A DNA stretch of 64,000 nt from Psammoneis japonica (GCA_008632985.1 QPGO01000009.1:124001-188000), one strand, 5' to 3'. Counted from the first letter of the stretch, positions 2,658 to 29,918 are shown. Program-made: numbers and translations. Notes: generated by a model from the letters alone, not told the origin.

Positions 2658-2672
2658 CTCCAATGTGCAATT

Positions 2673-2683
2673 GGGGAGGCGAA
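2673..2683 (+). promoter_or_regulatory. Polypurine tract of Gypsy copy A
   Basis: GGGGAGGCGAA immediately before the LTR-initial TG. The same tract lies on the minus strand at about 3180-3190 for copy B. Confidence 0.8.
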
Positions 2684-3179: not shown

Positions 3180-3205
3180 TTCGCCTCCCCAATTGCACAT
3201 TAGAG

Positions 3206-7976: not shown

Positions 7977-10900
7977 CAGGCACGCCTGGGCTGGTTGTTG
8001 TGCTCATCTCCCTTTGCCTGCATGCAGTGCCAAAACTCAACCTGGACAAAGCTTTCTCTGTTTGCTTGCTTTCTCACCAGCTTTTGTGCAGAGTGTCTGC
8101 CCACCACCCACAGACTTCGCTGAGTGAGTCAAACTTCAACACTTCAGCGGCCTCTTTTGGTTTTCATTGCTGGCCAGCTGTCATTGTCATGTTTTTGTCC
8201 ACATGCTCAGCTGACCACAGCAGATCCCAGAGGTGCTCTGTGCGCCCTTTGTCTTGCTGTGGACTCAAGCGCAAGGCCAGCATCAAGTGGTTGCTTTTTG
8301 CAAAATGAAAGCCTGTTGTTTTGCATGTTGTGTGCGACACAAGCAGCAGCTCCTTGCTGTCATTGTTGGATCTGGTGCAGGATCTGGTGCAGAGACACTT
8401 CTTGATGTTGCAGTCTGCATGTCATCACACAACAAAGAAGCCACTCAACACAAGGTCTCTGCCGCCATTGAAAAAAGGGTGGAGATGAGGCAGCTTGTGA
8501 AGGGGTTGTTTTTGAAGATCCAAGAGGCAGCCACAAGCTGCGCTGCACAGCCTTTGACAATGGCAACAAATGCCAGTTTGATCTTGCTGAAAAAGAAAAG
8601 CCCAGTTGCTTGCGGTGGTTGAGCATGAAGGGAAAGAAAAGTTTTTCATTGATCATTCCAGCACAAGCCTTGCAAAGAGGCAGAAAGCAAGCAGATTGAG
8701 AACACCCAAGAGGAGCAGAGAGCACTTTTGGCTCTGGAGCCAAATCCCATGCCAAGCTCAGATGGCAAAATGACCAGGGGGTGCGCTGACGAGTTGCTTT
8801 GCATGCTCTCAAGAAAGAATTGCTGGCAGCTGTTCTGAAGCTTGAAGCAAGCTTTGCATGCTCCAAAAAAAGAGCCCTGAACATCCAGGAGTCCAGCAGC
8901 ACATGAGACAAAAAATTGGGAGCCCCCTTGTCAAAACTCTCTTTCATGCCCTGATTTGGGCCTGATCAACATCCTTTGGTGCAATGATCTTGTGTCAGCA
9001 GCAGTGCTGCAACTTTGGTTGATGTTAAAAATGTGGGCAATGTGGCAAAAACAAAGCAGTGCTTTTGTCCAGCATGAAACTTCTCTCTCTCTTTCTTTCT
9101 CCTCTCTCTCCAACCACAAAGTGGTGTGAGCACAGAGTGAAAGTGTGGGGTGTTTGTGAGCAAATGAGCACAAAGTGTGCCAGCGCTGTGCCTGTGAATC
9201 TGGCAGTGGCTCACCTGCCCATTTCTGAGCACACTGCAACCCATGCTGTGCTCTGTCCCAGCATGGCACTCAGTGTGACTTGTTCCTCAATCAGCCAAGA
9301 GCATTGGAGCTTTGCACCCACCACATCATTTGTGCTTTGTGAGAGCTGAGTTGCATTTGTCACTTGCCCAAGACAACCTGCACTTCCAAAGCCAGGCTGC
9401 AGGTCAAGGGTCATGTGTTTTGAGCCAGCATTGCTCCCAGCACACTCTGTGGGCTCGGCACTCTCTTTGAGTTTCTTCAGCCCAGCACCAAGGGCTCAGC
9501 AATCTGACTTTCTCTCACACTCAGTGTGTGGAGTTAATTGGGCATGACAAGCTTGTGTGAGCTCCATCTTTGTTGTCATTCCACCTGCAAAGCAGGGCAC
9601 TGATCTTTGCTCCTGCAGCACAAGATCTGCTAAATCTGTTGAGGGCCCAACTGCAGTCTTGCAGCTCTCCAACAAAGTCCCTCACTTGACCACACATGGC
9701 ACCACCAGTTGCTCAATTGTCAACCCCAGTGCTGGTTCAGAGTTGGCACCCAAGGTTGCTGCATGCCCCAAGATGTGTTTTTGCACCAAGACTGCACTGC
9801 TGCTGTTGCAAAACACCCCGCACTGTGGCAAAGCAACAAGGCCATTTTGGGTCATTGAGATTTTGTCTGTGTGGGCTGCAAGAGCCTCTCCAAACTCTCC
9901 CTCTTCTGGGCTTGTTGCCACTGGTGTGTTGACAGCTTCAGCTGATCATGCAGCTCACTTGACAATTTCAAATTGTCACGTTGTGTGGGAGTTTAAAAAT
10001 GCCACCCAGAGGTGCCATTGTTTGTGTGTGGGCACACAAAGAAATGGCAAGCACCCTGTGTGTCACTCTTGCAACACATCAGACAGATGATGAGAGTTGC
10101 AGCTGTGATGAGATGCGCCAAGTGCAGACCACAGATTGCTTTGCAATGATTGTTGCCAGAATGGCAGTTGCAGGAAGGAAGCTTTTGAGCACTGCTGGTC
10201 AGGTTGAGTCCTGTTTTTTGGTGCCAGACATGGAGATGTGAGCCAGTGCTTGGTTGAGCCTGTGTCCCATGCGATGTTGCTCTTCTGCAACTCATCAGGT
10301 CCAAGCTTGTTGCTTGTGGCATGGACAAGGCACACAAGCTGTGGGTTGGCAGCAGAGTTTTTTTGGGGCTTGTTGCACAAGAGTTGAAGAGAAATGCTCT
10401 GTGAGGTTGATGGGTTGATGATCCAGGCAAGTTCATCATTGCAGCTCATCAGCTCTGAGTGCCTTGTCACAGTGTTGGCAGTGCTCAAAAGCCTTTGTCA
10501 TGGAATGTCTGACCAGCAAGAGAGTGGCCACCTGCCCGCCAACTTGCAAACCACATTTTTGATGTGGGCGAAGCAAACTGTGCTGATGGTCAATTGGTTT
10601 GATGTTCCAGGTGAGTTTGCTGATGTGGCTCATCAGCTCCAACATTGTTGTGGCACAAGCAATGCCCACAGGCATTTTTTCTTTGAATGTCTGGTGGCCA
10701 GGAAGGTGTCATCATTTGATTTGCCAAAGCAGGTGAAGCCACTGTTTTCTGCAAATCAAGGAGAAAGGCGCCATTGGGCTGACTGCTTGATGATCCAGGC
10801 GACCTCAATTGCACAGTTTTGTGAACTTGAGATCTTGACAGTGTGGGCATGCTGCTGGTTGTGGCGGTGAAAACTTCTTGCTGGGGTGCAGGCCATGAAT

Positions 10901-13900
10901 CAACTGACATGCAGCTGTGGGTGACTGTCTTCAGGAGTGTTGTTTTGAGTCTCACAATGATGCCCAGATGAGCTGGTCATGCACTCAAGCTGGCCATCTG
11001 GAGCAAACAGTGGTTGCTGGTGGCTGAGAGCAAGGTCTTAGCCACCCACTGCATTGTGAGCTGGATTCATGTGTCAGCTTGTTGTGATGCCAAAGGAGCA
11101 CCCCTTGAAAGAGAAATGCGCTGACAAGCAACTTCAGACTGTTGTGTGCACCAATGGAAAGCACCCAAATTCAATGATGCAAGTTGGAGGTGGAGCAGTG
11201 CATTGTGTCACCATGTCAGCACACACCATTCCAAGGGACCAAAAAAAAGCCAGCATCATCAAAACCTGCCAAAGAAGTGGAGCTCACGGACAGAGAATGG
11301 TGACAGAAATGATGTCCCTGCAGCGTCACTCTGGTGATCTCTCTCATTTCACTTGGAGCCTCCCAGATTGTGGACACAGGATGCAAATCAGAAGTCTGAG
11401 TCATGCTGAGAAAAAAAATGACCAAGAGCATGGGCCCTCACCAAGCAGCCCAGCAGGAGAATGATGGCAAATGGGGCTCTGTGACATGTTCCAGCCATTG
11501 CAACAAGGTCACCAACATGACCCATGGAAGCAAGCAAAGAGTTTTCTGGCTTCTTTGCAGCTCACATGCTTGCTGGAGGATTGTGGCAGGTGCACATTCT
11601 CCAACTGCAAGTGCAAATGGCAAAAAAAATTGATTTTGCCACAAGGGGAGGACTGCCACAGAACTCTTTCTGCAAGGCCCTGCAACACTCCATTTTTCCA
11701 CATCCTGGCTGTGATTTGTCTGTTTTTTCTTGTCATTCTGTTGTGAATGGTGAAAGTGTGAGTTCATTCTGACTTTGCCTTTTCCTTCATGGCAGCACAG
11801 CACTGTCAAGTGGATGATCTTCAGGGAAAGAATTTGAGCCTTGTGGCACCTGGTTTCCAGCACTTCAAATTGCAGTTTTTTGTTTCAAGCAAGCAATCAA
11901 CATGTGAATTTAGATGGAGAGATTCTGAGTGTAGATTTGTGGACCTTCACCCAGAGTTCCTGGCACAATTTCAGGAGTGACGTGGTGCATGAAATTGCGC
12001 CAACCACAGCTTTTCACAAACTGCTGGTCCCAAAATCAACAATGATTCGTTCTTGAAATCCAACAAAATCTACAGAGAAAAGCACACCTCATCATGATCC
12101 AAGCTGTTCAAGTTCCACCACTGCCAGCCCTCCATTGTCACACTGTCACATTTGAGCACATCCACCATTTTGATCTCCATGGAAGACTTTGCGCCGCACA
12201 AAATCTCCATGATCAACGTGACCACAGGCATCCACTCCTCCCTTTTTCAATTGAGTTGACATGCCTGCTTGCACACAGACATCTTTTTGTTCCACACTTG
12301 GCTGTCTGAGTCAACAGAGTGACTCATTGTCCAACAGCTGTTTTGTGTGGGTGTTTTGTCTTTTTGCAACTTACGATGGCAAAGGCACCCACATCCAATG
12401 CCAGGCCACTTGTGTTTGGAAACAAGGCAAAAAAGCTGAGTGGAGCAAACAAAAGTGCAGCTGGTTGCCTTGATGCCATTTGCATTGAGTGACTCCAGTT
12501 GCAGTCTTTGTTGCCAGTGAAGCATCGCCAAGCATCAAATGCAACAGAACAAGAAAAAGAGTCAAAACTGCCTTTGTGACAATCAACAACAGGAGTGCAA
12601 ACATCTTCAATCCCACACTGGTTGCTCACTCAAGCTTTCCACAGCATTGTTTGAATTGTTGCCCAGCAATGGGAGCTGATGTCCATGAGGTTTGTGAGTT
12701 GTGGCAATGGTCCCGGAGGGCCACAACACAGCGCACACATGCAGGCTTGGGGTTTTGGTTTTTTTTTGGGGGGGGGGGGGGGGCTTGTTTTGTCTGGAGA
12801 CATGGGTTCTTGTGAGTGTGTCACACACAGCAGTGCGTGGTGCACCGTCCAGGCCCCAGTGGAGGGGTGAGTGGCAAGTGCTTCTGGCAGTGGCAAGCAG
12901 CACTTCACTGCATGCTGCAGTCTGCAGTGGCAGAGACAAGAGACAACAAGATGTGACACATGATGGTGGAAGACATGCCAGCCACAGATGAGTCATCCAG
13001 TGATGAGCCACCACTTCCACCTGCAGCTCCTCCTGCATCCAAGTGCAGTCTTCCCTGCTGGCAGGATGCTCAAGCAACTGAGCCTGGTCAGTTCTGATGG
13101 ACAAGATGAGACTCTCTCTCTCTCTCTCTTTCTTGCATGCAATCACAGGTCAGTCCAGGTGCCAAGCAGCTGAAGTGTTTTAAGTTCAATTGACCATCAA
13201 TTCTCAGTGCTTTCCAAATCTGGGCCCCCACTTTTTTCATCTGGGGGACTCCCCCTTTTGTTGAAAAATTCTCCCCCCAAAACCCCAAGCCCACATGCAT
13301 GCAACAGCGCAATCATTGACATCCTTGGCTTGGTGTGCAGTCAAGGTGCACGCAAATTGTCACAGACAAAGTTCTGTGTGCTGCGCACATTGAATTGCAG
13401 CAACAGACAAAGATGTGGTTGGACAGGAGCAGTGCAGATGCACTGTGGCCATTGATCTGCTGTGTGTCAACTCCAGATGCTGCACAAAATGAACAGCAGA
13501 AATGTCCAGCAATGTTGGTGGTGTGACCAGAGGGTTGGTCATTGTTGACACATCATTTGTTTGCACACACAGTTTGACAACAAAGTTTGAAGACATTTGC
13601 CATGCCATTTTGTTTCAGCATTGGTGGTGGGGGGGAGTGGGAGTTGTGGGGGGGTCAATCACAGTGGCACTGCTGTTGTTTGCATCTTTGCACTGAGTTT
13701 TTGCCATGAGCATTGTGAGTGGGTCCAGCTGAAACTGGCTGGCAGATGACAAAAAGTTGACAAGAACCATGATCCATGGTTGCTGGTGCAGCAGCACCTC
13801 TTTGCAAAATGCAGTGCCGGGGCAGGATGACAGCTCTTGCCATGTGTCCTCTTCACCCACAACAGATGCCGCCAGCACCTCTTTGAGTTTTTTTTCATGT

Positions 13901-14555
13901 GCTTGCACATCATGGACATGTGAGTCATTTAGAAGTGACAACAACATGCTCACAACACGAGTCAATGCATTGACTCATTTCAATTGCCAATGACAGGCAA
14001 TTGAGGTGAGCACATTTGAGCATGCACGAGCAATTTGTGTCAGAACTTTGCGGCTTGCTGGCTGTTCTCATCTGTTCCCAACCTTGCAGCATGGATTGCA
14101 AGCACAACTCTGATGCCATTGCTGTGCTGCCTTGGCGCAGAAGCCAAAAAGTGAGCTTGAGACGCACCTTCATGGTGAGTTGTGAGTGCAGGTTCATGAC
14201 ATTGCCAACAGTCATCAGCACTCATTCACTGCAGCATGTTTTCTGTCTGCCCTCCAAGAGCTGTGTCACACCCCAATGTTCCAACATGCTCCTTTGAATG
14301 GCTGGCCTCATGTGCACCCATCAAAAGAGAACAACAGTTGGAAGCCATGCTGCCCAACACTGCATCAACTGCTTTGTCAAGAGACCTGCAGCTGACGCCA
14401 TCCAACTCTGCCAACAAATGATGGCTGCCCTCATTGAGCGAAGCTCTCCTTCACATGCCCAGCCTTGTTCACTTCCAGCATTTGGCCCATCTCTTCTCCT
14501 GTTGCACAAAGCTTGCCCCCCCATGTTTCTTGTTGGCCCCGCACCACATTGAATG
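7977..14555. repeat. Degenerate TpA/CpG-depleted repeat-derived DNA, family unassigned
   Basis: Almost no TA or CG dinucleotides. (CT)n tracts at ~9080 and ~13110. 13990-14400 resembles modules at ~22.1 kb and ~52.3 kb. Confidence 0.5.
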
Positions 14556-14738
14556 AATGCTGATGTGGTGTTCGTGGCCTGTGCCACAGCACTCTTGCCC
14601 TTCTGTCATTGCCACACTTGTGTCTGCACTGCATCTCCCATGCAATTGGACGCTGTTGTCACTGTGACCCAAACACACGTCCACAGTTGTTCACCCACAC
14701 ACTGACCAAACACAGACCACTCCACTGGGATTCACTTG
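14556..14738 (-). repeat. 3' LTR of the Copia element (ends approximate)
   Basis: Direct repeat of 20692-20876 (AATGCTGATGTGGTGTT...CCACTCCACTGGGATT). Confidence 0.8.
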
Positions 14739-17700
14739 GTCCCTGCAAATTGGCAATGCTTTGCCAGCTCATCTGCTCAAAACATCCTCTCACAGAGAGG
14801 CAAAACACAAACCCAATTGGCCACCAGCCAGTCTGGCTTGGGAGGTCACAAGGCATGAACATGAGTTGCAAGCCCTGGACCTTGGCTGCAAGGGAACCAT
14901 CATTGCCAAAAGACAAATGAGCACAACTGCCAACACTTTTCACCTGTCACAAGCTCTGTCAATGGATCTGCCAAATTCGTCTCCGCATCTTCCTTTCCAA
15001 CTCTCACAATTCCAGCTGCAACTGCCTCTCTCACTGTGTGACAGTTGACTGCATTGTGCTTCTTGTGCAATGCAGATTCTGGGACACTGATGTTCTTCAC
15101 CACACCGTGGTTGTTGCAAAACACATTCAACAATCATGTCCTCACAAGTGCACATCACGACCAACTCACTGCCAAATGCAGAAGACTCAACTGCATTCTG
15201 CCACTTGCTGAACCACACAATTGGAAAATTGTTCACAAAGACAACTGCGCACTTTCTTGAGGGGCTGTGCAACCAATCCTTGGAATTTTCTGCAACTTTG
15301 CAGGCCATCTTGGTCATGAAAAACTTTTTGAGTGCTGCATCAAAAGTGCCCTCTTCACCACAGAGCAGCGCTTGCGTCATGCTGGCTCCTCTCCTTTGTT
15401 TGTGGACGTGGCCATTGATCTGTCAGCATTCTTTCTTAAACTCACAGGACAAGCAGCTGGGAATGCGAGATGCCATTGAAGTGGGCTCCTCGTCTGATGC
15501 CACACGAAGAATCATTTTGCAGGTTTTCATTGCATGGGCAGTGCCAGAGTGTGGCCTGCATGCAATGACATTTCCAGCATGATTTGCATCAACAAAAGCA
15601 TGCACAGTCGCCGGGTTTCCACACAGCTCAGGCACCTCAGGTGGCAACTCTTCTTCACAGAATGCAGTCCAATCTGCCACACTGTTGAACACAGACTCAT
15701 CAATCTCAGGACTCTTGGGATCAAATCCAACCCCACCTCTGCCCGGATGCTTTTTCACACATGCAAATGCATGGCACAAGGCTTCCATGTGACCTTTCCT
15801 TGGATTCGCCTGATGTTGAGAAAGCAAAGACACTTCAAACAAAATGACAACGTGGCCCAACTCAATCATCCATCTTGCAATTCCAACAAGCTGCAAATGC
15901 CGGGACATGGAGTCGGGGCCCAATTTGTCCGTCACACCCAACTCTGGCTTGTGCTTTGCTGGGAATGGATCCTTGCTTCACACTGTTCTTCAAGACTGCA
16001 CCATCCCTGTCCTCACTTGACAGATCTTCCACTGTCTTGATTGTGTTCTTGATGCGGTCCTCAGGTGAACTGGCCCAAATCATGCGACTGTCTTGTGTCT
16101 GAATCTTCTCTGTCATTGCTCCCAAACAAGTCTCAGGTTCTCCTTCACTCCCAGGCTTGATCTTGCAATGCTCGGCAACAGACTTGACAACTGACTTGCC
16201 TTGATGCAACATCATCAGTGCATCATCCACACACACCAATGGCATCTCACAGTGCTTGTGCCCGTCTTTGCAAACTGCTGCTCACAAGGCTCAAATGCAC
16301 ATTGGGATCCGCTCATGTCGGTTTGAAACCCACATCTCACAAAGCAGAAGAAAATGTCAATTGCCATGAAAACCCTGCACTTTTCAATCCGTGAAGTGCT
16401 CTCACTGCAACCAATGCACACCCTTTGAACTTGTTGTCACACTCAGCTCCACCTTTGAACCATGTCTTCTCTGCACACGGTGCACTCAAACAAGCACTCT
16501 CCAAGTCGATTGCAGCAACATCCACATTGTTCAAGGCTGCTGGCACAAAAGCAATTCGTGCACTGTCCCTCAAGACAATGCTTGAGTGCGTGATTGAATC
16601 CAGTGCTTTTGCAGTGTGACCTCCAGCTGCAAACCTGGCCTTGCAGGTGAAATCCATCTTGACGTGAAACACCACATGGCATTGCATCTCTTGACATCCA
16701 CACAGCTTCTGACTCTTTCCTTCATGGACTTGTTGTGGAGTTTTGCCATTGTGCTTTTCCCATGCCACCTTTGCCTCAGTCATCTCCTTGTCAATGGCTC
16801 TGGCCCAATGGTCTGTCCCTGTCCCATGATCAATGTGCAGTGCTTCATCAACACTCTTTGGCAACTTGACCCCAAACTTGTGAGTGATTCACCAGCACTT
16901 TGACTTGACCTTTGACACAATGTGGCTTCATTTCCTTGGCACATGGGGTGCCCACCAAGCAAACACTGGTTCATTGGCAATTCTGTTGGCCACTGCATGC
17001 TCTGCCACTTCAACAGGATTAGAGTCCTTGACGTCTTTCAATTTGACCCAGTCAGAGCTGCCGTCCTTCCATGCCATCAGTGACTCCCAACCTTTTGTCA
17101 TCTTCTTCTTCTTGCTTTGACCTCCTGCAGTCTCAACTGTGCCATCATCCTTCAAAATTGCTTCCCACATCATCCTGTGGTCTTGAACTTCATGCAAAAC
17201 AGAGCACTGATGACCCTCATTGTTGACCTGAGCGGGCATGTTCTCAGCTGTGACATCTGTGTGCTCGATTTTGCACTCTCTTGCATCAAACAATGGGCTC
17301 TGATGTCTCCATCCCATTGGTTTGCCATCATGACCTCTTGCTCTCATTGCAACTGCACCATGCCTTTCTCCTTCTGTTCCGACATCCACCAGGATTAGCT
17401 CCATGCCAAGGCACTGGTCCATGGCTTCCTCGTCATCATCATCAGGGCACTCTTGTCATCTGTCAGCATGTCACCATGTTCTTTGTCATCTGGCACAACA
17501 CCTCCTTCACACTGCACATTGCACAATCATTGAAACAGAAGAATGCTGGGACTGCCTTGTCTCCTTCAAGCACAAAGTTCATGTCATCCAATCATTTTTT
17601 CAGAGCTTCACTGAGCTCATTGATCCATTTTCTTTTGTCCAACTCAACACAGTCTGCCTGCACAACTTGCTCCATGGAGGTTTCAGACACCAACTTGCTG

Positions 17701-20672
17701 CTCTCAGTCACAATCCAGCGACACATGTCCAACCCGACTTCATGTGATGTGCCAAGCCATCTTCCAAGCCGCCCAGGATCTGCAGTTGCACTTGGCTTCA
17801 AATCCGGTCTATCCTGCCACCAAACCAGGTCACAGAATCCAAAATCTGGGTGCTCCCTAATCTCTGGTGTTTGTCCTGTCACTTTTTCACATCTGGCTTT
17901 CCTGTCTTGACCTCGTGCCATTCTTGACAGCAACTCAGGTTCATGTGCTAGACCAAAATCCCACAATTGCTTTGGAGCTTTCTTCTCATTCATTCGCAGC
18001 CTCCAGTGCTCAGCCAAGAAACCTGTCTCCCATTCTGCTGTGTGACTCTGGTTCTTCCTGCCTTGTTCTGAGTTCCTGAGCTGTGTGCGCATGCGTCTCA
18101 CATGTTTCACAAAATCTGCATTCTTGCCAGTGAATTCTCCTGCCTCGTCCGTCAACAAGAACTTGGGCGCTCCAACATCGTCTGTGAACTCAACTGACGA
18201 TTGTCCTGCTTCCAACTGAGCTGTCATCAGGGTGACCTTTACAAACTTTCCCTGAGTGCAATCATTGGCACAAGTGTTGCCAAGAATGGACTTGACTTTT
18301 GAAATGAGGGTGTCAGCAAACCATGTCCCTTTTAGTCTCTTCCAGTGCAAATCCAGGCAATCCACATGAACACGCCTTGACAATGGCTGCATTGCTGTCC
18401 TGACACCTCGCTGAGTTGTGACATTGAGAGTGTCCTTTGCCGCATCTGGGCCAACATTCCACTTCCATGCTGGCTCCTCTGCTGTGATCTTTGAGTGCCG
18501 ATCCTTTGCACAATGTTCTGAGACTTTCTGTTCCAACCTGTCAACGTCCTCCCTGCAGGCACACTCAATCTTTGCAGATGCAATCATGCGGTCACAAAGT
18601 GTCAGAAGGTGATGAGTTGGGGAAATGCTTGCCACAGCCTCCTCAACTTCTCCCCACCATTGGACCGCTGCAGACTTGTCTTGCCCTGCTCTTGACTCTG
18701 ACATCTCTGACTTTCACATGTGGGGTGCCAATGATTGGATGGCCTGCATCTCCTGTTGCTCTCTGGTCTCATTCAGAAAACCCCCATGTCAACTTCTGAT
18801 GGATTCCAAGTGTCACCTGCAAGTGAGACAACTGGCAAATTCTGTTCCTCCCATTCTGTGGGCACTCAAGACTCAAAAGACACAACTGTCCCTGTGGCAT
18901 GAAAAGGCACAAAGGCTTCTTCCGTTGAAACACCAAAGCTGTCTTGGGGATTGCAAGGGTTGTCATTTGCCAAGACATTGCATGCTGTTCCATTTGCTGT
19001 CTGAACCATGACATCTGATCACCAACCAACAAATGTTTGGCTGCAGCATCAGGATCTGTCAAAACAGCACAACATTGAGCAACTGGAATTTGTTTGACCA
19101 GATCACATGATTCAAGGAATGGACTCACTTCACACATTTCATCAGTGGTCTCCATCAACTTCCAGTTCACTCCTGCACAACACATGTCCCCCACAAGCAA
19201 AGCCCCTGCCTGGGCCTCCATCATGGGACATTTCCGACATCTTGCACTTTGAACAATGCTGGGCCTCTAATTGGGATGCACCATGCAAACAAGAAACTTC
19301 AGCAGAGAAAAGAGGGCACACACACCAGGAAAGTTGCCAGGACGCTGCTGGCTGATCACAGGAATGCAAGCTTGCAGCCAAACATTGTTGATCTTAACCC
19401 CTCTCTGGAGAATCTCAACTTTTTGCCCTTCTGTCTTGCCCTGGTCCTCATCCTTTGCCAAGGTTGCAAATGCACTGGTGAGTTTTGCTGTGTGCTGTTC
19501 AAACAACAGGCGATGCTTGTTTTTACAGTGCAATGACCTGATGTTTGCCAATGCCAACTGAGTGCACTTGCCAAGCTCTCCCTGTCCATTGCAATGGTCT
19601 GTCCATGCCCAAAAAAGGCATCTCTCCCATTCTTTGTGCCGCTGTGGGCTTCAATCCAAGTCATTGCTTCCTTGTTTGCCATGTGAGCTTTCAACAAATG
19701 ACACACAGTGTGATTGTCCTGGTCAAATGCCACCCCATTCAAGCTCAATTGATGCACATGCTCCTCAACTGTGTCAACGAATGTGGCCGCTGCTGCTGCT
19801 GGCCTTGCCATGCAACACAATGGCTCTTTTAATGCCCCAACGTTCTGTGAGACAAGAGGTTCAAAAATGCATCCTCCATCACATCAAAATCATCCGACTT
19901 GAATGCCGGCAAGGAGCTGACCAACACTTTGGATTCAACCATGTCTTTTTCAATGTGCTTCTTCTGGCAAGGCAGCATCAACTGGTGCTGCCTGATTGAA
20001 AAGTGCTGAATCCAATGCAAGGCTGTGCTTCTGATGATCACAAAGCCACCAGCCCAAAGCTTGCAAGTTCTTAATTTGGACAGTGCCAAGTGTTGCTCTC
20101 CCATCCTGGTTGGCATGACTGCCAACCCTGTTTGCCATGTCTTCCATGTCCCAGTCACCTTCCATTGCTGCAATGTTTTCCAGTGTCACAAGTCCATCAC
20201 AACACACCAAGCAAGCTCTTGCATTGATGTTGGCAATGCCACATGTCTGCAGAACATCATCAACATCCACTGCATGGACAGGAGACTGAACGCTCTGCGA
20301 GCACCATGGTGACAGGTCCACACAGTCAACTGGCAATGGGAGGCCACCCCATGCCAATTTGTCTGAGTGGTGAGCACACACTCTGGGCATGCCACCGCCC
20401 CCACACTGCTCTGTTTGACGCCTCTAGCACACATTGAAAACCAATTGATTCACAAGTGTGACACCATTTCAACCACAGCAATTCTCATGGTTGGTTGGCA
20501 TTTGTTGCAAAATCTGATGTTGCCCGATGCACACACGCAAAAACCAGCACTGCTTCTGTGGCTGACACCCATGTGGTTCTGCACAGCAGCAACAAATGGC
20601 CACATGTGTTGTTTTGTTTCACACCCGTGTGATGACAATTCCATTGTGCTCAGATGCTCAACAACAGACCAT

Positions 20673-20684
20673 GGCTCTGACAAA
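20673..20684 (-). promoter_or_regulatory. Probable degenerate initiator-Met tRNA primer-binding site
   Basis: Minus strand TGTCAGAGCC next to the 5' LTR matches the core of the canonical TGGTATCAGAGCC with one TA->TG change. Confidence 0.5.
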
Positions 20685-20691
20685 GCAAACA

Positions 20692-20876
20692 AATGCTGAT
20701 GTGGTGTTGCGGCCTGTGCTGCAACACTCTTGCCCTTCTGTTGTTGCCACACTTGTGTCTGCACTGCAATTCCCATGCAATTAGATGTTGTCATCATTGT
20801 GACCCAAATGTGTGTCCACAGTCATTCACCCACACACTGACCAAATGCAGGCCACTCCACTGGGATTTGCTTGACA
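20692..20876 (-). repeat. 5' LTR of the Copia element (ends approximate)
   Basis: Direct repeat of 14556-14738; begins TGTCAAG on the minus strand. Confidence 0.8.
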
Positions 20877-20879
20877 TGT

Positions 20880-22520
20880 CCAACACCTGCAGCACCTCCT
20901 TGGCTGAGTTGGTGGGGTGGCTGTCAACCCCCAGTGCAAGCTGCCAGTGTGGGTCCTTCAAGACACACCAACCCTCATTTTAGAGGGTGCCTTCCATGAG
21001 CAGCACTGCCAACAACTTGCTCCTCTCTTTCTTCTGAGTGTCCTCAGCATCCGTGCTGAACCCATCTTCTTTCTTGGCAATTTCTTCTGGGACAACTCTG
21101 CTGCAGGACCCTCCCACCATCTCAGCAGCACTTGCAAGCTAACTGCAATGATCTTGAAGTGCCTCTCTTTCATCTTGATGAGCGAGCATCAGCCAGCTGG
21201 TGCTTCCAAGCCTCAACAGCCTGAGTGTGCAAGTAGATTCTCTTGGCTGCATTGACCAAGATCAGCTTGTTGCATTGACCAAGATCAACTTGAAAATTTC
21301 CAACAGCACCACCATGTCCCACTCTGTTGTGGCCCTTGCAAACTCCATCACTCCTTTGACCTTGTGATGGATGGCCTTTGTTCACTGTCCTGCAGTTAAA
21401 AAAGAAACACCCTTGCCTTCTGCATCTCACAGATTGTGCCCCATCTCATGTGGTGACCACCTCATTTCCCCCCAAAAAGCCCCATCCTTCTCTGATGCTG
21501 TTGCCTCTGATGGATGCTTCAGCTCATCCAGTTTGTTCTCCTGCCTCAGAGATGCCAGCAGCTGTGTCTCCAGCCCAGGTGCTCTTCTGACATGCTTGCT
21601 TGTTCTCCTTGCAGTCTCCATGTGCCAGTCGGCCTGTCAACCTGACTTGGCAATGGCGCCACATGCCTGCTCCTTCAAATCTTTCATGCTTCTGTGCTCT
21701 GCTGCATCCTTGCCCATGTCAATGCTTCTGCTGGTCCAACACAACATCGCCACACCCTCTGTTGGCAGACCCTTGCAGCTTCCTCACAGCAAGGTCCTCC
21801 AGAGGCTGTTTCTTTGCCTCCAGTCACTCCTTCAACCAGAGCAACAATTCTGCAATGACTCTTGTCAGCTCAGCAAACTCAAATGCCATGATTGCTCACA
21901 CCAACCAAGTCTTGGATTCTTCTTGATTTCCCAGCCAGCCTTTTTCACTTCTGTGTTGGAACTTCATGGCCTTCCCACTGATCTGCGCCAGTCTTGCTGA
22001 TTCCCAAACTCACCACGTGGACTGCAAACACAGCTCCAATGCTGTCGCCATGTTGCCCTGATGCAGAAGCTGAAAAATGAGTCCAAGCACAGACCCACAT
22101 TCATGGCAAGCTGCAAATGTGGATTTGCAATGTTGTCAACAGCTGCCAGTGTTCTTCCACTGTGACATTGTTCATCTGTCCTCCAAAAACTGTGATGTGC
22201 TCCAATGTTCCCACAATTGAGCATGTGTGAAGCACAGCAGCTGGACCAAATGCTGTCATGAGGGCTGTCAACCAGCAGCTCTGGCAGCTGGAGCAGCCAA
22301 GTGTGAAAGCTGAGCCGCCAGCACCAGCAGATTGGCTCAAACTAATGATGAAACAGGCTGTGTTTTGTGCTGCTCAGCAAGGGAAGAACAGTGGCTCTCC
22401 ACTGCTCTCCATGTCTTTGATGCTGAGAGAAAAGTGACTGGCAATTCAAGTGAGCACATTTGAGCTCATTTGAGCATGTTGAGTGCATGTGAGCACATGC
22501 GAGCACACATGAGCACATTT
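20880..22520 (-). mobile_element. Degraded gag-like repeat fragment; related copies at ~43.6-44.2, ~46.6-47.0 and ~51.1-53.2 kb
   Basis: Shared peptides LRQENKL(D/E)EL.HPS.ATA (21.5 and 51.8 kb) and shared DNA GCTGAACCCATCTTCTTT.TTGGCAATTTCTTCTGG (21055 and 52841). Ends in ~10-bp GAGCACAT repeats. Confidence 0.6.
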
Positions 22521-25500: not shown

Positions 25501-25562
25501 CAATCAGTGTGTTGAGTCTGCTCAGAAATTCATGATGCATGTCCCATGAGAACTTGAGTGCC

Positions 25563-25656
25563 GCTGAAAAACATTGTTTGACTGTCCATGCTCTGGACAC
25601 CAGTGTCAAGCTGAAAAACATTGTTCAACTGTCCATGCTCTGGACACCAGTGTCAA
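25563..25656. repeat. 47-bp tandem duplication
   Basis: GCTGAAAAACATTGTT(TG/CA)ACTGTCCATGCTCTGGACACCAGTGTCAA twice; the copies differ only by a TG/CA swap. Confidence 0.85.
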
Positions 25657-26699
25657 CCAACTGCAAAGTTTTTTGCAACAATCAGATTGCAGACAGTTGA
25701 TTCTTTAACTGCTCATGCTCTAGACACCCATGAAAGCCCATTGGCACAAGCATTTCTTGTCAAAACACTTGACACATGCAATTCACATGATTTGTGTTTG
25801 TGTTGGTTGCTCAATGTCTTCAATGTCAAATTTTGATGAGCCAAATTTGAGAAAGCTTGCCCAAGTTTCAAACACAGTTGAGTTGTTGAGGACTGCAAAG
25901 GTGCTTGACAGCAATGCATGAGATCCTTTTGCAGGCCTCTTTGCACTTCTTGTTTGTCCTTCTGCAAACCAGATGGCTTTTAAATCAGCACCCAGCACCC
26001 ACTGAATGAGTCCATTTCAAACAAGTCAGCACACTTTGCTGCAACAAATCCCCATCCATTCATGTCAACAGCAGTTTGCCCCTGCATTTTGCTCTTGACA
26101 TCTAAAATGCCACCACCATTGCCATCACAGGCCCAATGCAAGCTGGCATGTTGATGGCACTCTGCACAAGTTGGGCATGCTGTCCCAAGCCACAGCACTG
26201 CTCCTGAGCTGCCAGCAAGCAGAAGAGCCCCAGTCATCACCCCCCAGCCAGCTTGGCACGGCCACTCCCAGCACCTCCTTGGGTGATGCCATTGCTGCAT
26301 CTGGTCCTTGCAAAATGGCAGATGTGCCAAACAAGATTGCTGGTGGTGATTTTGAGCTCAGGGCTCCTCAGATGTCTGGCAAGCATTGGTGATGATGATG
26401 GCAGCATCTCGGATGATGAAGAAGACAAAGCTTGTCTTTTTGAAATGTTCCTTGGCAATGGCACCTCCTGAATGTTGGTGTCCAATGCAGGTCAATTGAT
26501 GGGAGCAGAGCCATCTGTTCTCAGTGAGAGCATTGTTGGGGCGCAGCTCCCCCTTTGCAGAGAAATCCTCTCTTGAGCTGACTGCACTCTGTGACAACTC
26601 CGGCACCACTCAAGGATTTTGTGACTTGCTGCTCACCCTTCTGCAATGTCTTAGAAGAAGTTTGACATTTCTGAGTCTGTTTGGCATTGGAAGCTGGTG

Positions 26700-27110
26700 G
26701 AAAACCTGCAAAAGAAGGTGTGCATGCTGAAGCCTGACATGCACTTGACAGGTGGGTGCCGAGTCACTCGTTTCTGCACACAGGACATGTTGCAAGACCT
26801 GCTTGCCCACCCACTTTTTGACAATGAGCACAGCCTCAATGTGAGCCAGTTGATTCAGGAACAACATCTGGAGGGCTGCAACATCTGCAAAATTGTGCCC
26901 AACAAGCAGCACTTTGACACACACACAACAATCTCCCCAAAGACTTTGACCAAGAAAAAGACTTGCTCCTTGTCATTGGCTTGCATGCAGACCAGAGAGG
27001 AGCTGATGCCTGTCAATGCTGTCCACTTGAGCCTTGGCTCTTTGGCGTCCTTGTTGTGAAGAGACAAGCTTGCAAACACCCATGTCATTCTCTGGGTTCT
27101 GTCTTGGTTT
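26700..27110 (+). pseudogene. Possible Plavaka-like transposase remnant
   Basis: DMLQDLLAHPLF...IGLHADQRGADACQCCPLEPWLF resembles the LYxDxTxxD....LEPxxF block as I recall it, once Tyr->His/Cys is reverted. From memory only. Confidence 0.4.
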
Positions 27111-29918
27111 CATGCCAAGTCTGGACAAAAGAGGTTCTTCTGGCTGCTGTGCTGGTGATTTGGGCAACACAATTGATGAGGGTCATGGCACAACTTGTCT
27201 GCCAATGTGCGGGCACACCACAACATGCTGTTTTTTTTTTGCTGGAGGATTTGATGCAGCTGCAAAAGCGCCCCTGCAACATGAGGATGATGCAGGCTCT
27301 CCTTGCTCAGAGTCCAATTTGTGGCAACCAGATTTCACAGGACTGCCTGCGTGGTCAGAGAGCAACCAACAAAGGTGGTGCTGGTCATGTCAACTGACTG
27401 TGCATGTTTTCATTCACAAATGCCTCTGACAGATTCCTCCAATGATTGCACAATGGACTGTCTTGCACTCCATTGCCAACATTTTTTAGCTGCACCACAC
27501 AGCTCTTGTTGCTGGCACACTCCACTCCAAGAACCTCCCAGGCTCATTTGCCAAACTTTTTGATTTGCACCTTGCAATTGCAGGGTGGTGGAAGATCAAA
27601 ATGTTCAGCATGCATTTTGTCATGGCAAAGCTGTGCACAATGAAAGGCATCAGCAATCATGGCCTTTGTTTGTGCCAGCAACTCTTCTTCCTTGTTGTTG
27701 GTTTCAAATGCATTGGGCCCACACAAGAGGGGTGGCTCTGAGCTGCTGTTGGCTCCAACAATCCAGCTCTGTCCACAACAACCAAGATCCACTCAACAAC
27801 TCACTTCCAGCTCTCCAGCAACTTGGTTGTCATGCTTCTCATTTCAGGCACCATGCTCCAAAATCAAATGGCCAGCCAATCCAAAATGTGGAGCTCACAA
27901 GCCTTGAAAAATGTTTTTTTAAGAGTGTGCGTTTTGACTGGGCGCAATCTTTGTTGCTCATGGTGGGACCTTGCTCAACTTGTGCAAATGCTGCTCAGGA
28001 TTGGGGGCCCATTTCATGGACTTGAAGGAATGTGTGGGGAGACAGAAAGGTTGGCAAGCAGGCAGAAGTTCAACAGAAAGTGACAAAAAATGAGCTCACG
28101 GTCATTGGCATCCTTGACGGGGTTGCCATCTTTGTCCACACCATCAAGAGAACATGAAAAGTCCAGCAACAAGCTTTGGTGCAGCAGAGCCCACATTTGT
28201 GTCCCAAAGATTGGCCAACTGTGTTGCTGATGGCAATCACTTGCTCCAAAAAACATCAGCTCAGTGCAAAAGTCACATGAGGTGCACACACTCTGAGGAA
28301 AACACAAGTTTTACAGCTGCAGCCATGTTGTCTGGTGATGTGGCTGTTGTCTGTTTGTTTTTCTGAAAGCTTTTGGGTGCCAGCAATGTCATGGCAAATC
28401 TGTGCTGTGACTGTGCTTGTGGCACAGCAGCTGTCACATGCGTTGTTGCCAGTTTGCCATGCACTTGGTGATTGCTCCTCATTGAAGCAAAACAAAAGAT
28501 CTTTTTGCCTCCCCAAAATGACTGTGCTGGCAAAGAACAGTCATCACAAAGCCAGGCACAGCAGACAAAAATGACAGCACAGCAGCTCTCTCATTGTTGG
28601 ATGCTTTCTGGGTTTGTGCATCTGCCGCTGCAAGAGCAAGCTCAAAGCTTGGTTTGCAGCTCACTTGTGTGTTTTGTTTGACAGGTGGGTGAGCCCCGCT
28701 GGCACTCCATGAGATTTTTTGGTGATGGGTCCACCAGACTTGTGCAGCACATGTGTTGGGTGACATGGCTCCAAGCGCCAAGTGGTTTCTGAAGCCCATC
28801 ACATGATGACAACTTTTTCTGGTCAAAGCTTGAAACAGAAACTCCAAAAATTCATTTTGTTGCATTGAATGTTCCACACACACTTTGGATTTGTTGCCAG
28901 TTTAGTGAGTGCATTTGGCAGTGCACTGCACTCTCTTTGTTTCTTTCTGTCCAACATTCTGCACTCTATTTGAGGTGCTTGTTTGGGTGCTTTGTGTGCA
29001 GTCTTTGACTGTGGGGCAATCAACTCAGGAGGTGGTTGCCACCTGGGTTTCAGCTCCAACAGCTGGAGTTGTCCACCAAGTGCAGCAAGTCTGACCCATC
29101 TGAGTTTTCATCAAGTTCTGGCTCCCTTGCACAATGGTTTGATTCTGCCATTGTTGGAGGGGCCTGAAGGATGCAATTGTTGAGATTTGGCATTGCAGGG
29201 GCATGGCCAGATTTGGTGAGTGCAGTGCCTTTTGAGCGCCAGTCTTCACCAGGTTCTGTGCATTTTGCCGCACGCATTTTGCAGCAGTCTTCACACAAGT
29301 GCAGCTGTTGGTTTTCACTTTTCCTTTGGTCACGACCAGCACTCCTGCTCATGATTGTCATCCTGTCTGGTGGCAAGAATTTGAAAAGTGCTGCCAGCTC
29401 AAGAGTGGCAGGGTCAAGCAAGTTGAGCAAAGTTGTTGTTCACAACAGCAGCAACATCAATCACAATGACACGGCACAGGAATCTCTTCCCAACACAATG
29501 AAGAAATGATGTGAGATGCAGGGGGCAAGTGCAACCGGAAGAAGTGGATTTGTGATGGTGACCAGCACACACAAAATGGAGCTCAAAATGCTGGCAAATC
29601 AAGTTCTCATTGCATTGAAAATGCTTGCCATGACAATGTGAGACACTGGCAACCTCATTGAAACAATCAAGCAGAGATCCGAGCCACAAACAGGGATGAG
29701 CGGCAATGAAACAATGAAGTGATGATGAAATGGCCAACGACACGTAGTCGACAAGCGCTTTACTCAGGATAGAGATTTACTGCGTCACTCTCCACAACAG
29801 AGCAGGTGTAAGACCATCCACTCTAGATGCCATTAGGCGGCCGAGATGCCAACGCACTAGATAGGAACCTAGATTCTGCAGCGACAAACTCCTGCTTGCC
29901 ACTGATCGACACGCTTAG

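What the first reader, a model, noticed from the sequence alone, without database searches (positions are those of the whole stretch)
7977..29742. About 22 kb almost devoid of TpA and CpG, ending abruptly at a gene
Seen: TA is very rare from 8.0 to 29.7 kb while TG/CA dominate. From about 29743 (CACGTAGTCG...) TA and CG return within a few bases and persist to ~32215. The same switch recurs at ~39470-42010 and after ~55.3 kb. Inference: the process saturates in old repeats and is sharply targeted, consistent with chromatin- or methylation-guided mutagenesis rather than a genome-wide bias. TpA observed/expected could serve as a homology-free repeat detector.
Basis: partly seen in the sequence, partly recalled or inferred. 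Interest (0 to 1): 0.82.

Follow-up and report, generated by a model that had tools for sequence, protein, structure and literature searches.

The report
Diatom transposons stripped of TpA
In this piece of a diatom chromosome, old jumping genes have had nearly every TA and CG step rewritten to TG or CA while the neighbouring genes and ribosomal DNA are untouched, which points to a transposon-targeted A-to-G mutation process that I could not find described.

Summary
Three blocks (7977-29742, 33101-39400, 42001-55300; 41.4 kb) have TA o/e 0.02-0.04 and CG o/e 0.09-0.22 at about 50% GC, with TG/CA about 1.9. The edges are sharp to within about 20 bp. The window is nuclear DNA of a raphid pennate diatom. 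It holds two genes and an rDNA unit of normal composition.

The depleted DNA holds retrotransposons. A decayed Ty1/Copia lies inside the flagged block. Two young Ty3/Gypsy copies at 1-7976 have lost TA (o/e 0.20) but not yet CG (0.89).

The direction of change is shown. Of 25 conserved Tyr codons in Gypsy copy B, 21 are now TGY or CAY. None of 37 CAN codons and none of 21 TGN codons became CGN. The two Gypsy copies differ by 220 transitions and 4 transversions, with 64 TG-versus-CA double differences. An element's own two LTRs differ in the same way.

So a DNA-level, strand-symmetric, TpA-specific A:T>G:C hypermutation acts on transposons. It runs roughly 12 times faster than the parallel CpG decay. 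The enzyme and the targeting signal are unknown. Ten literature searches found no report of it.

The parts
1..3055 (+). Ty3/Gypsy copy A. It is cut by the window start. Its 3' LTR is 2684-3055. It is inserted into the 3' LTR of copy B. TA is low and CG is normal.
   Evidence: Pfam Integrase_H2C2 and rve on 1449-2657. 1-2800 aligns to 5870-3063 at 92% identity. LTR alignment.
3061..7976 (-). Ty3/Gypsy copy B. The polyprotein frame is 7642..3206 with 3 in-frame stops. The 5' LTR is 7976-7605. The 3' LTR remnant is 3179-3061. TA o/e over 1-7976 is 0.20 and CG o/e is 0.89.
   Evidence: Pfam RVT_1, RT_RNaseH, RT_RNaseH_2, Integrase_H2C2 and rve. 104 homologous polyproteins. Conserved Tyr became Cys or His in 21 of 25 columns. 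The family is about 100-200x single-copy depth in run X1.
7977..29742 (.). Depleted block 1, the flagged region. TA o/e 0.04, CG o/e 0.15, TG/CA about 1.9.
   Evidence: It starts exactly at the outer end of the Gypsy B LTR.
14556..20873 (-). Decayed full-length Ty1/Copia element inside block 1. The LTRs are 14556-14738 and 20692-20873. Coding relics span 14879-20273.
   Evidence: phmmer: 1,893 hits at E<=0.001, best 2.6e-71. The homologs carry RVT_2. tblastn and HMM maps. 0 of 401 aligned Tyr positions are kept. LTR pair. Depth is about 6-8x single copy.
29743..32215 (-). Island of normal composition. It holds a single-exon gene, 29919-31916, 665 aa, a diatom-wide protein family without a Pfam domain.
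   Evidence: 160 homologs, the named ones all diatoms. No Pfam family. Tyr content is 3.0% against a homolog median of 2.9%.
32216..33100 (.). Intermediate segment. TA is gone (1 TA, o/e 0.02) but CG is largely kept (o/e 0.64).
33101..39400 (.). Depleted block 2. TA o/e 0.03, CG o/e 0.09.
39401..42000 (-). Island of normal composition with a 635-aa ORF, 39738-41645, of unknown family.
42001..55300 (.). Depleted block 3. TA o/e 0.02, CG o/e 0.22. It holds several members of an unnamed dispersed repeat that is also present in block 1.
55301..64000 (+). Spared rDNA unit. The spacer with a tandem repeat is 55301-57863. 18S is 57864-59665, 5.8S is 59910-60064 and 28S is 60427-63828.
   Evidence: Rfam. 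Composition TA o/e 0.86, CG o/e 0.92. The spacer tandem copies differ by 14 transitions and 15 transversions.

Best explanation
Transposon DNA in this diatom undergoes a DNA-level hypermutation. It converts the A of 5'-TpA-3' to G on either strand, so each TA becomes TG or CA.

The process is confined to transposon-derived sequence. It stops within about 20 bp of genes and of the rDNA.

It is fast. In the time two Gypsy copies gained 4 transversions in 2.8 kb, each copy lost about 80% of its TAs.

A second, slower process is the ordinary decay of methylated CpG to TG/CA. It acts on the same DNA. Because both processes end in the same two dinucleotides, old elements end up with neither TA nor CG.

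The consequence for the elements is loss of every Tyr codon (to Cys or His), together with changes such as Ile>Val/Thr and Thr>Ala. Stop codons are not created, because TAA and TAG disappear.

What is shown: the direction of change, the dinucleotide specificity, the strand symmetry, action after LTR duplication, confinement to transposon sequence, and the relative rates.

What is inferred: the chemistry is enzymatic deamination of adenine to hypoxanthine in DNA by a deaminase with a -1 T preference (my best guess, about 0.4). The targeting uses the same signal that marks transposons for silencing, either homology or small RNA or heterochromatin. The process works as a RIP-like genome defence.
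For: Direction of change:
- 555 columns are conserved in at least 70% of 30 homologous Gypsy polyproteins. 25 of them are Tyr columns.
- Copy B keeps Tyr in 2 of the 25. It has Cys (TGY) in 17 and His (CAY) in 4.
- The Copia relic keeps 0 of 401 aligned Tyr positions. These come from 12 non-independent queries. The replacements include Cys 106 and His 73.

Specificity:
- His or Gln to Arg (CA>CG): 0 of 37 columns.
- Cys or Trp to Arg (TG>CG): 0 of 21.
- Ser to Pro: 0 of 12. Phe to Ser: 0 of 32. Asp or Glu to Gly: 1 of 58.
- Of 27 first-position A>G replacements, 22 follow a T.
- Only 3 of 75 retained A-first codons follow a T.

Hypermutation rather than ordinary drift:
- Gypsy A and B differ by 220 transitions and 4 transversions.
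- The control duplicate in normal DNA shows 14 transitions and 15 transversions.
- 199 of the 224 differences lie in YpR steps.

Independent hits in each copy: 64 sites are TG in one copy and CA in the other. 38 sites are TA versus TG or CA. 22 sites are TA in both copies.

Action on DNA after LTR duplication: the two LTRs of Gypsy B differ by 23 transitions and 0 transversions, with 9 TG/CA doubles. The Copia LTR pair has 8 such doubles.

Strand symmetry: 88 TG and 78 CA outcomes in the sense orientation (from the counts). In the blocks, TG and CA counts are 2538/2571, 739/724 and 1482/1552.

Age series, as TA o/e and CG o/e:
- 0.20 and 0.89 (Gypsy, 1-7976)
- 0.02 and 0.64 (32216-33100)
- 0.02 and 0.22 (block 3)
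- 0.04 and 0.15 (block 1)
- 0.03 and 0.09 (block 2)

Not intrinsic to the element clade: 77 related Gypsy loci from metagenomes have TA o/e of at least 0.56, median 0.76.

Sparing: genes, the rDNA and the non-coding rDNA spacer have normal TA.

The sequence is present in accurate reads.
Against: - No enzyme, base modification or targeting signal could be examined, because no genome is held. The chemistry is inference.
- Only one window, with two young copies and one old element, carries the direction-of-change evidence.
- About 33 kb of the depleted DNA has no recognisable transposon protein.
- 8337-12338 is single-copy at 80% likeness or more in run X1. Restriction to repeats is therefore not proven for all of the depleted DNA.
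- At 3 listed Gypsy sites the bulk of the other genomic copies carry the opposite dinucleotide (TG versus CA) to this copy. So some mutated lineages went on copying themselves, and part of the TA loss may be inherited rather than acquired in place.
- A patch (alignment positions 1401-1800) is less mutated in both copies. That could mean shared history or local protection.
- The metagenome comparison was seeded with Tyr-containing peptide patterns. It is biased towards unmutated elements.
- The 3'-neighbour preference is clear among survivors in old DNA but weak in the young pair, at 26 versus 22.
Confidence: 0.75

Rival explanations
1. Passive decay of a mutagenic epigenetic base modification. 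In silenced transposons, TpA carries a symmetric, heritable modification, for example thymine oxidised to 5-hydroxymethyl- or 5-formyl-uracil by a TET/JBP-type enzyme. This base mispairs with G at replication. TpA then decays to CpA/TpG much as methylated CpG decays. No dedicated mutator would be needed.
For: TpA is palindromic like CpG, which would allow maintenance of a mark. The depletion coincides exactly with CpG depletion in space. The outcome is strand-symmetric. From recall, not from any call here: dinoflagellate 5-hydroxymethyluracil is enriched at TpA.
Against: TA is lost about 12 times faster than CpG in the same copies. This is my arithmetic on the counts. That is fast for a passive side effect.

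The listing of the search for diatom plus 5-hydroxymethyluracil showed only dinoflagellate-focused papers. I opened none of the 15 papers that hold both terms.

For 6mA: passages of preprint 10.1101/2024.10.28.620566 state three things. The diatom Phaeodactylum has 5mC only. Eukaryotic 6mA sits at ApT in transcribed genes. Its mutagenic potential seems limited.
Confidence: 0.2
2. Editing during the retrotransposition cycle. This could be ADAR-like A-to-I editing of the element RNA, or an APOBEC-style deaminase acting on the cDNA. Copies would then be born mutated, and the sharp edges would simply be the element ends.
For: The edges coincide with an LTR end at 7976/7977. All identified depleted sequences are LTR retrotransposons. 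At 3 sites the majority of the other copies share a mutated state different from this copy. So some mutated lineages did propagate.
Against: RNA or minus-strand cDNA editing should be strand-limited. The outcomes here are 88 TG to 78 CA in the sense orientation.

The two LTRs of a single element differ by many TG/CA doubles. RNA-level editing cannot produce that.

TA loss increases with age, from 0.20 to 0.02-0.04.
Confidence: 0.06
3. Native composition or selection. These elements, or this chromatin, avoid TA and CG for a functional reason, for example escape from a nuclease. No special mutation process would be involved.
For: TA is mildly under-represented even in the normal islands, with o/e 0.61-0.86.
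Against: Conserved catalytic-domain tyrosines are replaced. There are in-frame stops and frame breaks. Related elements elsewhere have normal TA. The ratio of 220 transitions to 4 transversions is a mutational signature.
Confidence: 0.02
4. Sequencing or assembly artefact. Modified bases in heterochromatin are misread as G or C.
For: From recall, not from any call here: long-read basecallers make systematic errors at modified motifs. The best-holding run may be the very data behind the assembly.
Against: k-mer contigs from run X1 reproduce 4,273 bases of the block with 2 differences. Their word depth is about 69 and their length reaches 315 kb, so the underlying reads are accurate.

A symmetric modification misread on both strands would give CG at former TA sites, but CG is depleted.

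Different copies show different outcomes at the same site.
Confidence: 0.02

Closest known systems
Repeat-induced point mutation (RIP) of filamentous ascomycetes (Neurospora; RID-dependent)
   Same: Transition-only hypermutation. It acts on both strands, at the DNA level, and is confined to repeated or transposon sequence. Copies are hit independently. The rDNA is spared. The result is dead elements and compositionally aberrant blocks next to normal genes.
   Different: RIP is C:G>T:A, mainly at CpA. It creates TpA and AT-rich DNA and many stop codons. Here the change is A:T>G:C at TpA. It destroys TpA, keeps GC near 50% and removes stop codons. The organism is a diatom. Dependence on duplication, on meiosis or on a RID-like enzyme was not testable. 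Passages of PMC9998398 say that diatoms have a DNMT4 related to RID, of unknown function.
Methylation-driven CpG decay in silenced transposons (vertebrates, plants; 5mC on diatom transposons, PMC9998398)
   Same: CpG loss with TpG/CpA gain, restricted to transposons and growing with age. This accounts for the CG half of the observation.
   Different: It cannot remove TpA. The TpA loss here is about 12 times faster than the CpG loss in the same copies (my arithmetic).
TCG-targeted RIP-like hypermutation in Pucciniomycotina and Microbotryum
   Same: A transposon-restricted hypermutation with a target motif other than the Neurospora CpA. This is mentioned in passages of PMC12730594.
   Different: It is still cytosine deamination (C>T) and it occurs in fungi.
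APOBEC3 (G>A) and ADAR (A>G) editing of retroelements in vertebrates (PMC4866542: title and start of abstract seen in the listing)
   Same: Host deaminases hypermutate LTR elements. ADAR gives A>G and, from recall, prefers a 5' U.
   Different: Those act on cDNA or RNA before integration and leave a one-strand signature. Here both strands are hit equally, and the two LTRs of one element diverge from each other.
TadA/ADAT-type adenosine deaminases (tRNA A34 in a U-A-C context; engineered DNA adenine base editors). Recalled, not tested.
   Same: Adenine deamination preceded by T/U and followed by a pyrimidine matches the context seen here. Surviving TAN counts in old DNA are TAA 88, TAG 58, TAC 13 and TAT 7. 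In normal DNA they are 319, 348, 424 and 295.
   Different: As far as I recall, no natural enzyme of this family is known to act on chromosomal DNA. No gene could be looked for here.

Membership tests
RIP (fungal repeat-induced point mutation) | Mutations are C:G>T:A transitions | tested here: not met
   The changes whose direction could be determined are A:T>G:C at TpA. Tyr (TAY) became TGY or CAY in 21 of 25 columns. A slower CpG>TpG/CpA component also exists: 7 of 43 Arg columns became Trp, His or stop.
RIP (fungal repeat-induced point mutation) | The product is AT-rich with TpA excess (high TpA/ApT index) | tested here: not met
   TA o/e is 0.02-0.04 and GC is 0.49-0.51 in the blocks. This is the opposite of the RIP product.
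RIP (fungal repeat-induced point mutation) | Transition-only, both strands, copies mutated independently | tested here: met
   220 transitions and 4 transversions. 88 TG and 78 CA outcomes, and 64 discordant TG/CA sites.
RIP (fungal repeat-induced point mutation) | Triggered by sequence duplication | tested here: inconclusive
   The Gypsy family is at about 100-200x and the Copia at about 6-8x single-copy depth. But 8337-12338 is single-copy at 80% likeness or more. The tandem spacer repeat and the rDNA are not mutated.
RIP (fungal repeat-induced point mutation) | Premeiotic timing and dependence on a RID-type DNMT | not testable with these tools
   No genome is held. There are no crosses.
Methylation-driven CpG decay | CpG deficit with TpG/CpA excess limited to silenced repeats | tested here: met
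   CG o/e is 0.09-0.22 in the blocks and 0.92-1.06 in the islands. Arg CGN became TGG, CAY or TGA in Gypsy B.
Methylation-driven CpG decay | 5mC present on the affected DNA | not testable with these tools
   There are no methylation data. 5mC on diatom transposons is reported in PMC9998398 (abstract and passages).
Pre-integration editing of retroelements (ADAR or APOBEC type) | One-strand signature relative to the element's sense strand | tested here: not met
   88 TG and 78 CA outcomes in the sense orientation.
Pre-integration editing of retroelements (ADAR or APOBEC type) | Edits made on the RNA are shared by both LTRs of one insertion | tested here: not met
   The Gypsy B LTR pair has 23 transitions including 9 TG/CA doubles in 119 bp. 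The Copia pair has 8 doubles.
Ty3/Gypsy LTR retrotransposon (1-7976) | RT, RNase H and integrase in that order, flanked by LTRs | tested here: met
   Pfam RVT_1, RT_RNaseH(_2), Integrase_H2C2 and rve. LTRs.
Ty1/Copia LTR retrotransposon (14556-20873) | RVT_2-type RT with the integrase upstream, flanked by LTRs | tested here: met
   Collinear tblastn and HMM matches to RVT_2-bearing polyproteins over residues 13-1353. The element's own RVT_2 hit is below the Pfam cutoff, at 21.2 against 31.6 bits. The LTR pair is at 14556-14738 and 20692-20873.

The most novel reading that the evidence does not exclude
Diatoms, or at least this lineage, possess a genome-defence mutator with a chemistry not known from any natural system. 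It would be a transposon-guided enzyme that deaminates adenine, or modifies thymine, at TpA in chromosomal double-stranded DNA on both strands. This would be the first RIP-like system outside fungi and the first to run A:T>G:C. Such an enzyme would be a natural counterpart of the engineered adenine base editors.
Probability: 0.4. Interest if true: 0.93.

Novelty: new variant of a known kind. Interest (0 to 1): 0.86.

Why it matters
If it holds genome-wide, several things follow.

- Transposon-targeted hypermutation would not be a fungal peculiarity, and it could use adenine rather than cytosine chemistry.
- It points to a concrete, findable enzyme: a natural DNA-directed adenine deaminase or a mutagenic TpA modification. 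That is of obvious interest for base editing.
- It makes an open question directly testable, namely how diatoms control their abundant LTR elements beyond 5mC.
- Dating of diatom LTR insertions from LTR identity with a single clock would be badly wrong in such a species. This practice appears in passages of preprint 10.1101/2025.10.24.684338. Here one element's two LTRs differ by 19% with no transversion.
- TpA o/e would flag ancient transposon DNA that homology searches miss.
- Gene finders will see long spurious ORFs in such DNA, because TAA and TAG are absent.

Tried and rejected
- Whole genome: none is held. I could make no search for deaminase, TET/JBP or DNMT4 genes, and no genome-wide test.
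- Expression: no RNA holder is listed for 26000-33500.
- Pfam on 130 ORFs of at least 110 aa from the depleted blocks gave one sub-threshold RVT_2 hit, which led to the Copia element, and one chance-level CBL hit.
- HMMs built from the Gypsy and Copia homologs found no further copies in the window.
- tblastn with 12 Gypsy-type polyproteins hit only 1-7976.
- ORF 44340-45119 (block 3) has no homolog among longer proteins. Shorter or similar-length proteins were not searched.
- The ESM Atlas gave nothing for the 635-aa ORF. The two island proteins are unrelated to each other.
- Looking for Tyr-poor relatives among database homologs, as a sign of the same process elsewhere, was uninformative. Homologs have normal Tyr content, and too few Tyr columns were available.
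- A scan of viral contigs with the mutated Gypsy protein found nothing.
- I tried to determine the direction of change with the majority letters of other genomic copies. Only 29 Gypsy-region sites could be used, out of 40 listed and 2,338 not shown. The majority copies are themselves mutated, so this failed.
- A 3'-neighbour preference could not be established from the young Gypsy pair, at 26 versus 22. It rests on the survivors in old DNA only.
- Earlier findings of this scan: nothing for this genome or for this sequence. The word hits were unrelated phage or organelle cases.
- No tRNA genes.
- timed out and was rerun with faster alignment settings.
- UV photoproducts and mismatch-repair signatures were considered from memory. 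I dropped them because they would not be confined to transposons.

Full report
1. THE OBSERVATION

Dinucleotide counts in 1-kb windows, a Poisson HMM on 100-bp bins and region totals confirm the finding and sharpen it. The window has three compositional states.

Normal state (TA 35-57 per kb, CG 53-63 per kb):
- 29743-32215
- 39401-42000
- 55301-64000

Doubly depleted state:
- 7977-29742: 54 TA, o/e 0.04; 188 CG, o/e 0.15
- 33101-39400: TA o/e 0.03, CG o/e 0.09
- 42001-55300: TA o/e 0.02, CG o/e 0.22
- TG and CA o/e are 1.8-1.9 and GC is 0.49-0.51 in these blocks.

- 1-7976: TA o/e 0.20, CG o/e 0.89
- 32216-33100: TA o/e 0.02, CG o/e 0.64

The edges are steps. The last TA before the flagged block is at 7952 and the next is at 9026. 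There is no TA in 29300-29744. Then 15 TAs occur up to position 30000. Such TA-free runs have P about 1e-8 to 5e-20 at the normal density.

Contigs made from the reads of a public DNA run (X1, word depth about 62-70 for single-copy sequence) reproduce 7983-12255 with 2 differences. The composition is therefore in the reads, not only in the assembly.

2. WHAT THE DNA IS

The organism. The 665-aa single-exon gene at 29919-31916 (minus strand) has 160 homologs. All the named ones come from raphid pennate diatoms: Seminavis, Amphora, Fistulifera, Cylindrotheca and a Bacillariaceae sp.. It has no Pfam family.

The rDNA. 55301-64000 is an rDNA unit. It holds 18S (57864-59665), 5.8S (59910-60064) and 28S (60427-63828), plus a spacer with a tandem repeat.

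The Gypsy copies. 1-7976 holds two Ty3/Gypsy copies tail to tail.
- Copy A is 1-3055 on the plus strand, with an LTR at 2684-3055.
- Copy B is 7976-3061 on the minus strand. Its 5' LTR is 7976-7605. Its 3' LTR was truncated by the insertion of A.
- Both have RT, RNase H and integrase domains.
- The flagged block begins exactly at the outer end of B's LTR.

The Copia relic. Inside the block, a 373-aa ORF (17595-18713, minus strand) has 1,893 homologs at E<=0.001, the best at 2.6e-71. The long homologs are RVT_2 polyproteins. Collinear matches cover 14879-20273. A 183-bp LTR pair sits at 14556-14738 and 20692-20873. This is a decayed full-length Ty1/Copia element.

Other repeats. A further unnamed dispersed repeat links 14.1, 21.0-22.2, 43.6-44.3, 46.2-46.9 and 51.1-53.2 kb.

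Unidentified DNA. The rest of the depleted DNA, about 33 kb, gave no protein homology.

Copy number. Summed contig depth at 80% likeness or more in run X1:
- Gypsy family: about 100-200x single copy
- Copia: about 6-8x
- 21010-21676: about 15x
- 8337-12338: single copy

3. DIRECTION AND SPECIFICITY OF THE CHANGE

I aligned copy B's polyprotein frame with 30 homologous polyproteins (P0121-P0150) and took the 555 columns where at least 70% of them agree.

Tyrosine columns. Of 25 Tyr columns, B keeps Tyr in 2. It has Cys (TGY) in 17, His (CAY) in 4, and Phe and Ser in 1 each. So TA became TG or CA, not the reverse.

Controls:
- His or Gln to Arg (CA>CG): 0 of 37
- Cys or Trp to Arg (TG>CG): 0 of 21
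- Ser to Pro: 0 of 12
- Phe to Ser: 0 of 32
- Asp or Glu to Gly: 1 of 58

Codon boundaries. Of 27 first-position A>G replacements (Ile>Val, Thr>Ala, Met>Val, Lys>Glu and similar), 22 follow a T. Only 3 of 75 retained A-first codons follow a T.

CpG decay is also visible but slower. Of 43 Arg columns, 27 are kept, 3 are Trp, 3 are His and 1 is a TGA stop.

The old Copia relic keeps 0 of 401 aligned Tyr positions. These come from 12 overlapping queries, so they are not independent. The replacements include Cys 106 and His 73.

Tyrosine content:
- neighbouring gene: 3.0% (homolog median 2.9%)
- Gypsy B: 0.5% (homolog median 3.6%)
- Copia ORF: 0% (homolog median 3.2%)

4. A HYPERMUTATION, ACTING ON DNA, INDEPENDENTLY IN EACH COPY

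Gypsy A (1-2800) and B (5870-3063) are 92% identical.
- They differ by 220 transitions and 4 transversions.
- A tandem duplicate in the normal rDNA spacer differs by 14 transitions and 15 transversions.
- 199 of the 224 differences lie in YpR steps.

Dinucleotide pairs between the two copies:
- 64 sites are TG in one copy and CA in the other
- 38 are TA versus TG or CA
- 22 are TA in both
- 122 are CG in both
- 33 are CG versus TG or CA

The TG/CA doubles are what independent hits on an ancestral TA produce. An origin from CG would explain only about 1 of the 64 (my arithmetic).

At 23 conserved Tyr codons shared by both copies, the states are TG/TG 12, TG/CA 6, CA/CA 1, TA/TA 1, TG/TA 1 and other 2. 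This fits independence, given the TG bias at TAY.

Rough rates from these counts (inference, small numbers):
- Each copy kept about 22% of its TAs and about 88% of its CGs.
- TA is therefore lost about 12 times faster than CpG.
- With only 4 transversions in 2,796 sites, the TA rate per base is of the order of 10^2-10^3 above background.

Outcomes are strand-symmetric: 88 TG and 78 CA in the sense orientation.

The two LTRs of the same element, which are identical at insertion, differ by 23 transitions and 0 transversions in 119 bp, with 9 TG/CA doubles (Gypsy B). The Copia LTR pair has 8 such doubles.

This excludes editing of the RNA. Together with the strand symmetry, it argues against cDNA-stage editing.

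TA loss deepens with age while CG loss lags. The series of TA o/e and CG o/e runs 0.20/0.89, 0.02/0.64, 0.02/0.22, 0.04/0.15, 0.03/0.09. This fits continued or repeated action in place.

5. SEQUENCE CONTEXT

The 83 TAs that survive in the depleted blocks are, strand-collapsed: CTAA 32, TTAA 21, GTAA 10, CTAG 10, ATAA 4, CTAC 3 and ATAG 3. There is no ATAT, GTAC or ATAC.

Counting both strands, the surviving TAN counts in depleted versus normal DNA are:
- TAA: 88 versus 319
- TAG: 58 versus 348
- TAC: 13 versus 424
- TAT: 7 versus 295

So an A followed by a pyrimidine (T-A-Y) is removed most completely. This agrees with Tyr>Cys (17) outnumbering Tyr>His (4).

In the young Gypsy pair the effect is weak, at 26 versus 22.

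6. TARGETING

Spared sequences are the two genes with only about 180-350 bp of flank, the non-coding rDNA spacer including its tandem repeat, and the rRNA genes. The depletion is therefore not a property of non-coding DNA as such.

It is also not intrinsic to the Gypsy clade. 77 related loci from metagenomes have TA o/e of at least 0.56 (median 0.76), and no 1-kb window is below 0.25. Some of them show CpG depletion alone, for example L013 at 0.12. One caveat: the search seeds contained Tyr, which favours unmutated copies.

I could not test whether the trigger is repetition, small RNA or chromatin. The single-copy status of 8337-12338 at 80% likeness is compatible with very old, independently scrambled elements. 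TA and CG scrambling alone gives about 11% divergence between copies. But this does not prove that the stretch was ever a repeat.

7. MECHANISM

Shown: a TpA-specific, strand-symmetric, DNA-level A:T>G:C hypermutation in transposon sequence, with slower CpG decay superimposed.

Inferred, and my commitment: enzymatic deamination of adenine to hypoxanthine in DNA by a deaminase with a -1 T and +1 pyrimidine preference. It would be recruited by the transposon-silencing machinery and would act as a RIP-like defence. It kills elements by missense changes (every Tyr, including the RT active-site Tyr) rather than by stop codons.

The main rival is passive decay of a mutagenic TpA mark such as oxidised thymine. 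It fits the palindromic target, but it has to explain a rate about 12 times that of methyl-CpG decay.

6mA is unlikely. Passages of preprint 10.1101/2024.10.28.620566 report three things. Phaeodactylum has 5mC only. Eukaryotic 6mA sits at ApT in active genes. Its mutagenic potential seems limited.

An artefact is unlikely. The sequence is in accurate reads. A symmetric misread would give CG at former TA sites, and CG is depleted. Different copies also differ at the same site.

8. COMPARISON WITH WHAT IS KNOWN, AND NOVELTY

The process works like RIP. It is transition-only, hits both strands, is confined to transposons, spares the rDNA and produces compositional blocks.

It fails the defining chemical features of RIP. 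RIP is C>T, gains TpA and becomes AT-rich. This process is A>G, loses TpA and keeps GC. So it is not RIP in the strict sense.

Ten literature searches and passages of five papers turned up no report of TpA-targeted hypermutation in diatoms or elsewhere. The library lacks most subscription journals, and I saw no supplements.

PMC9998398 (abstract and passages) notes that diatoms carry a DNMT4 related to fungal RID, of unknown function. This is a lead only for the cytosine side.

I rate the finding as a new variant of a known kind. There is a substantial chance that the chemistry is categorically new.

9. LIMITS

- The evidence comes from one 64-kb window. Two young copies and one old element carry the direction-of-change evidence.
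- No enzyme or modification data are available.
- Part of the TA loss may be inherited from already mutated source copies. At 3 listed sites the bulk of the other copies carry the opposite TG/CA state. A patch at alignment positions 1401-1800 is under-mutated in both copies.

Noticed in passing
window 57864-63828 (rDNA), 55745-56768 (spacer repeat): A complete 18S-5.8S-28S unit lies directly beside the transposon nest. Its spacer holds a tandem repeat of about 500 bp (copies 87-94% identical) with an ordinary 14:15 transition:transversion spectrum. So this repeated DNA is exempt from the TpA process.
   Followed up: partly
window 29919-31916 (-): A 665-aa single-exon protein with 160 homologs. 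All the named ones are from diatoms, and there is no Pfam domain. This is a conserved diatom family of unknown function.
   Followed up: partly
window 39738-41645 (-), repeat 39848-40194: A 635-aa ORF in a normal-composition island. It has an internal tandem repeat, is Lys-rich (10.7%), and gave no Pfam or Atlas match. It is unrelated to the other island gene.
   Followed up: partly
window 1101-1800 and the matching part of copy B (about 4070-4770): A patch of about 600 bp of the Gypsy element keeps far more TAs than the rest, in both copies. In alignment positions 1201-1800, copy A has 26 TAs and copy B has 14. There are no TG/CA doubles in positions 1401-1800. This could be local protection or shared history. 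It is unexplained.
   Followed up: partly
window 3055-3061: Gypsy copy A ends 5 bp from the truncated 3' LTR of copy B. So A inserted into B's LTR (nested insertion). Both copies are nevertheless about equally TA-depleted.
   Followed up: partly
window 14131-14294, 20960-22190, 43659-44257, 46254-46951, 51158-53211: An unnamed dispersed repeat family (65-86% identity between members) lies inside the depleted blocks. The Copia element appears to have inserted into one member. Depth at 21010-21676 is about 15x single copy in run X1.
   Followed up: partly
Copia relic 14879-20273: 28 of 401 aligned Tyr positions are now Arg (TAY>CGY, both bases changed). No CA>CG or TG>CG change is seen in the young Gypsy copy. 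This may be a slow second step or alignment noise.
   Followed up: no
loci L013, L014 (metagenome contigs): Related Gypsy elements from other hosts show strong CpG depletion (o/e 0.12 and 0.26) with normal TpA (0.62 and 0.59). CpG decay without the TpA process therefore exists elsewhere.
   Followed up: partly
window 42801-43200, 44301-44600, 52901-53300, 54801-55300: Short patches inside block 3 keep CG (35-40 per kb) while TA stays absent. They are probably younger fragments nested in older ones.
   Followed up: no
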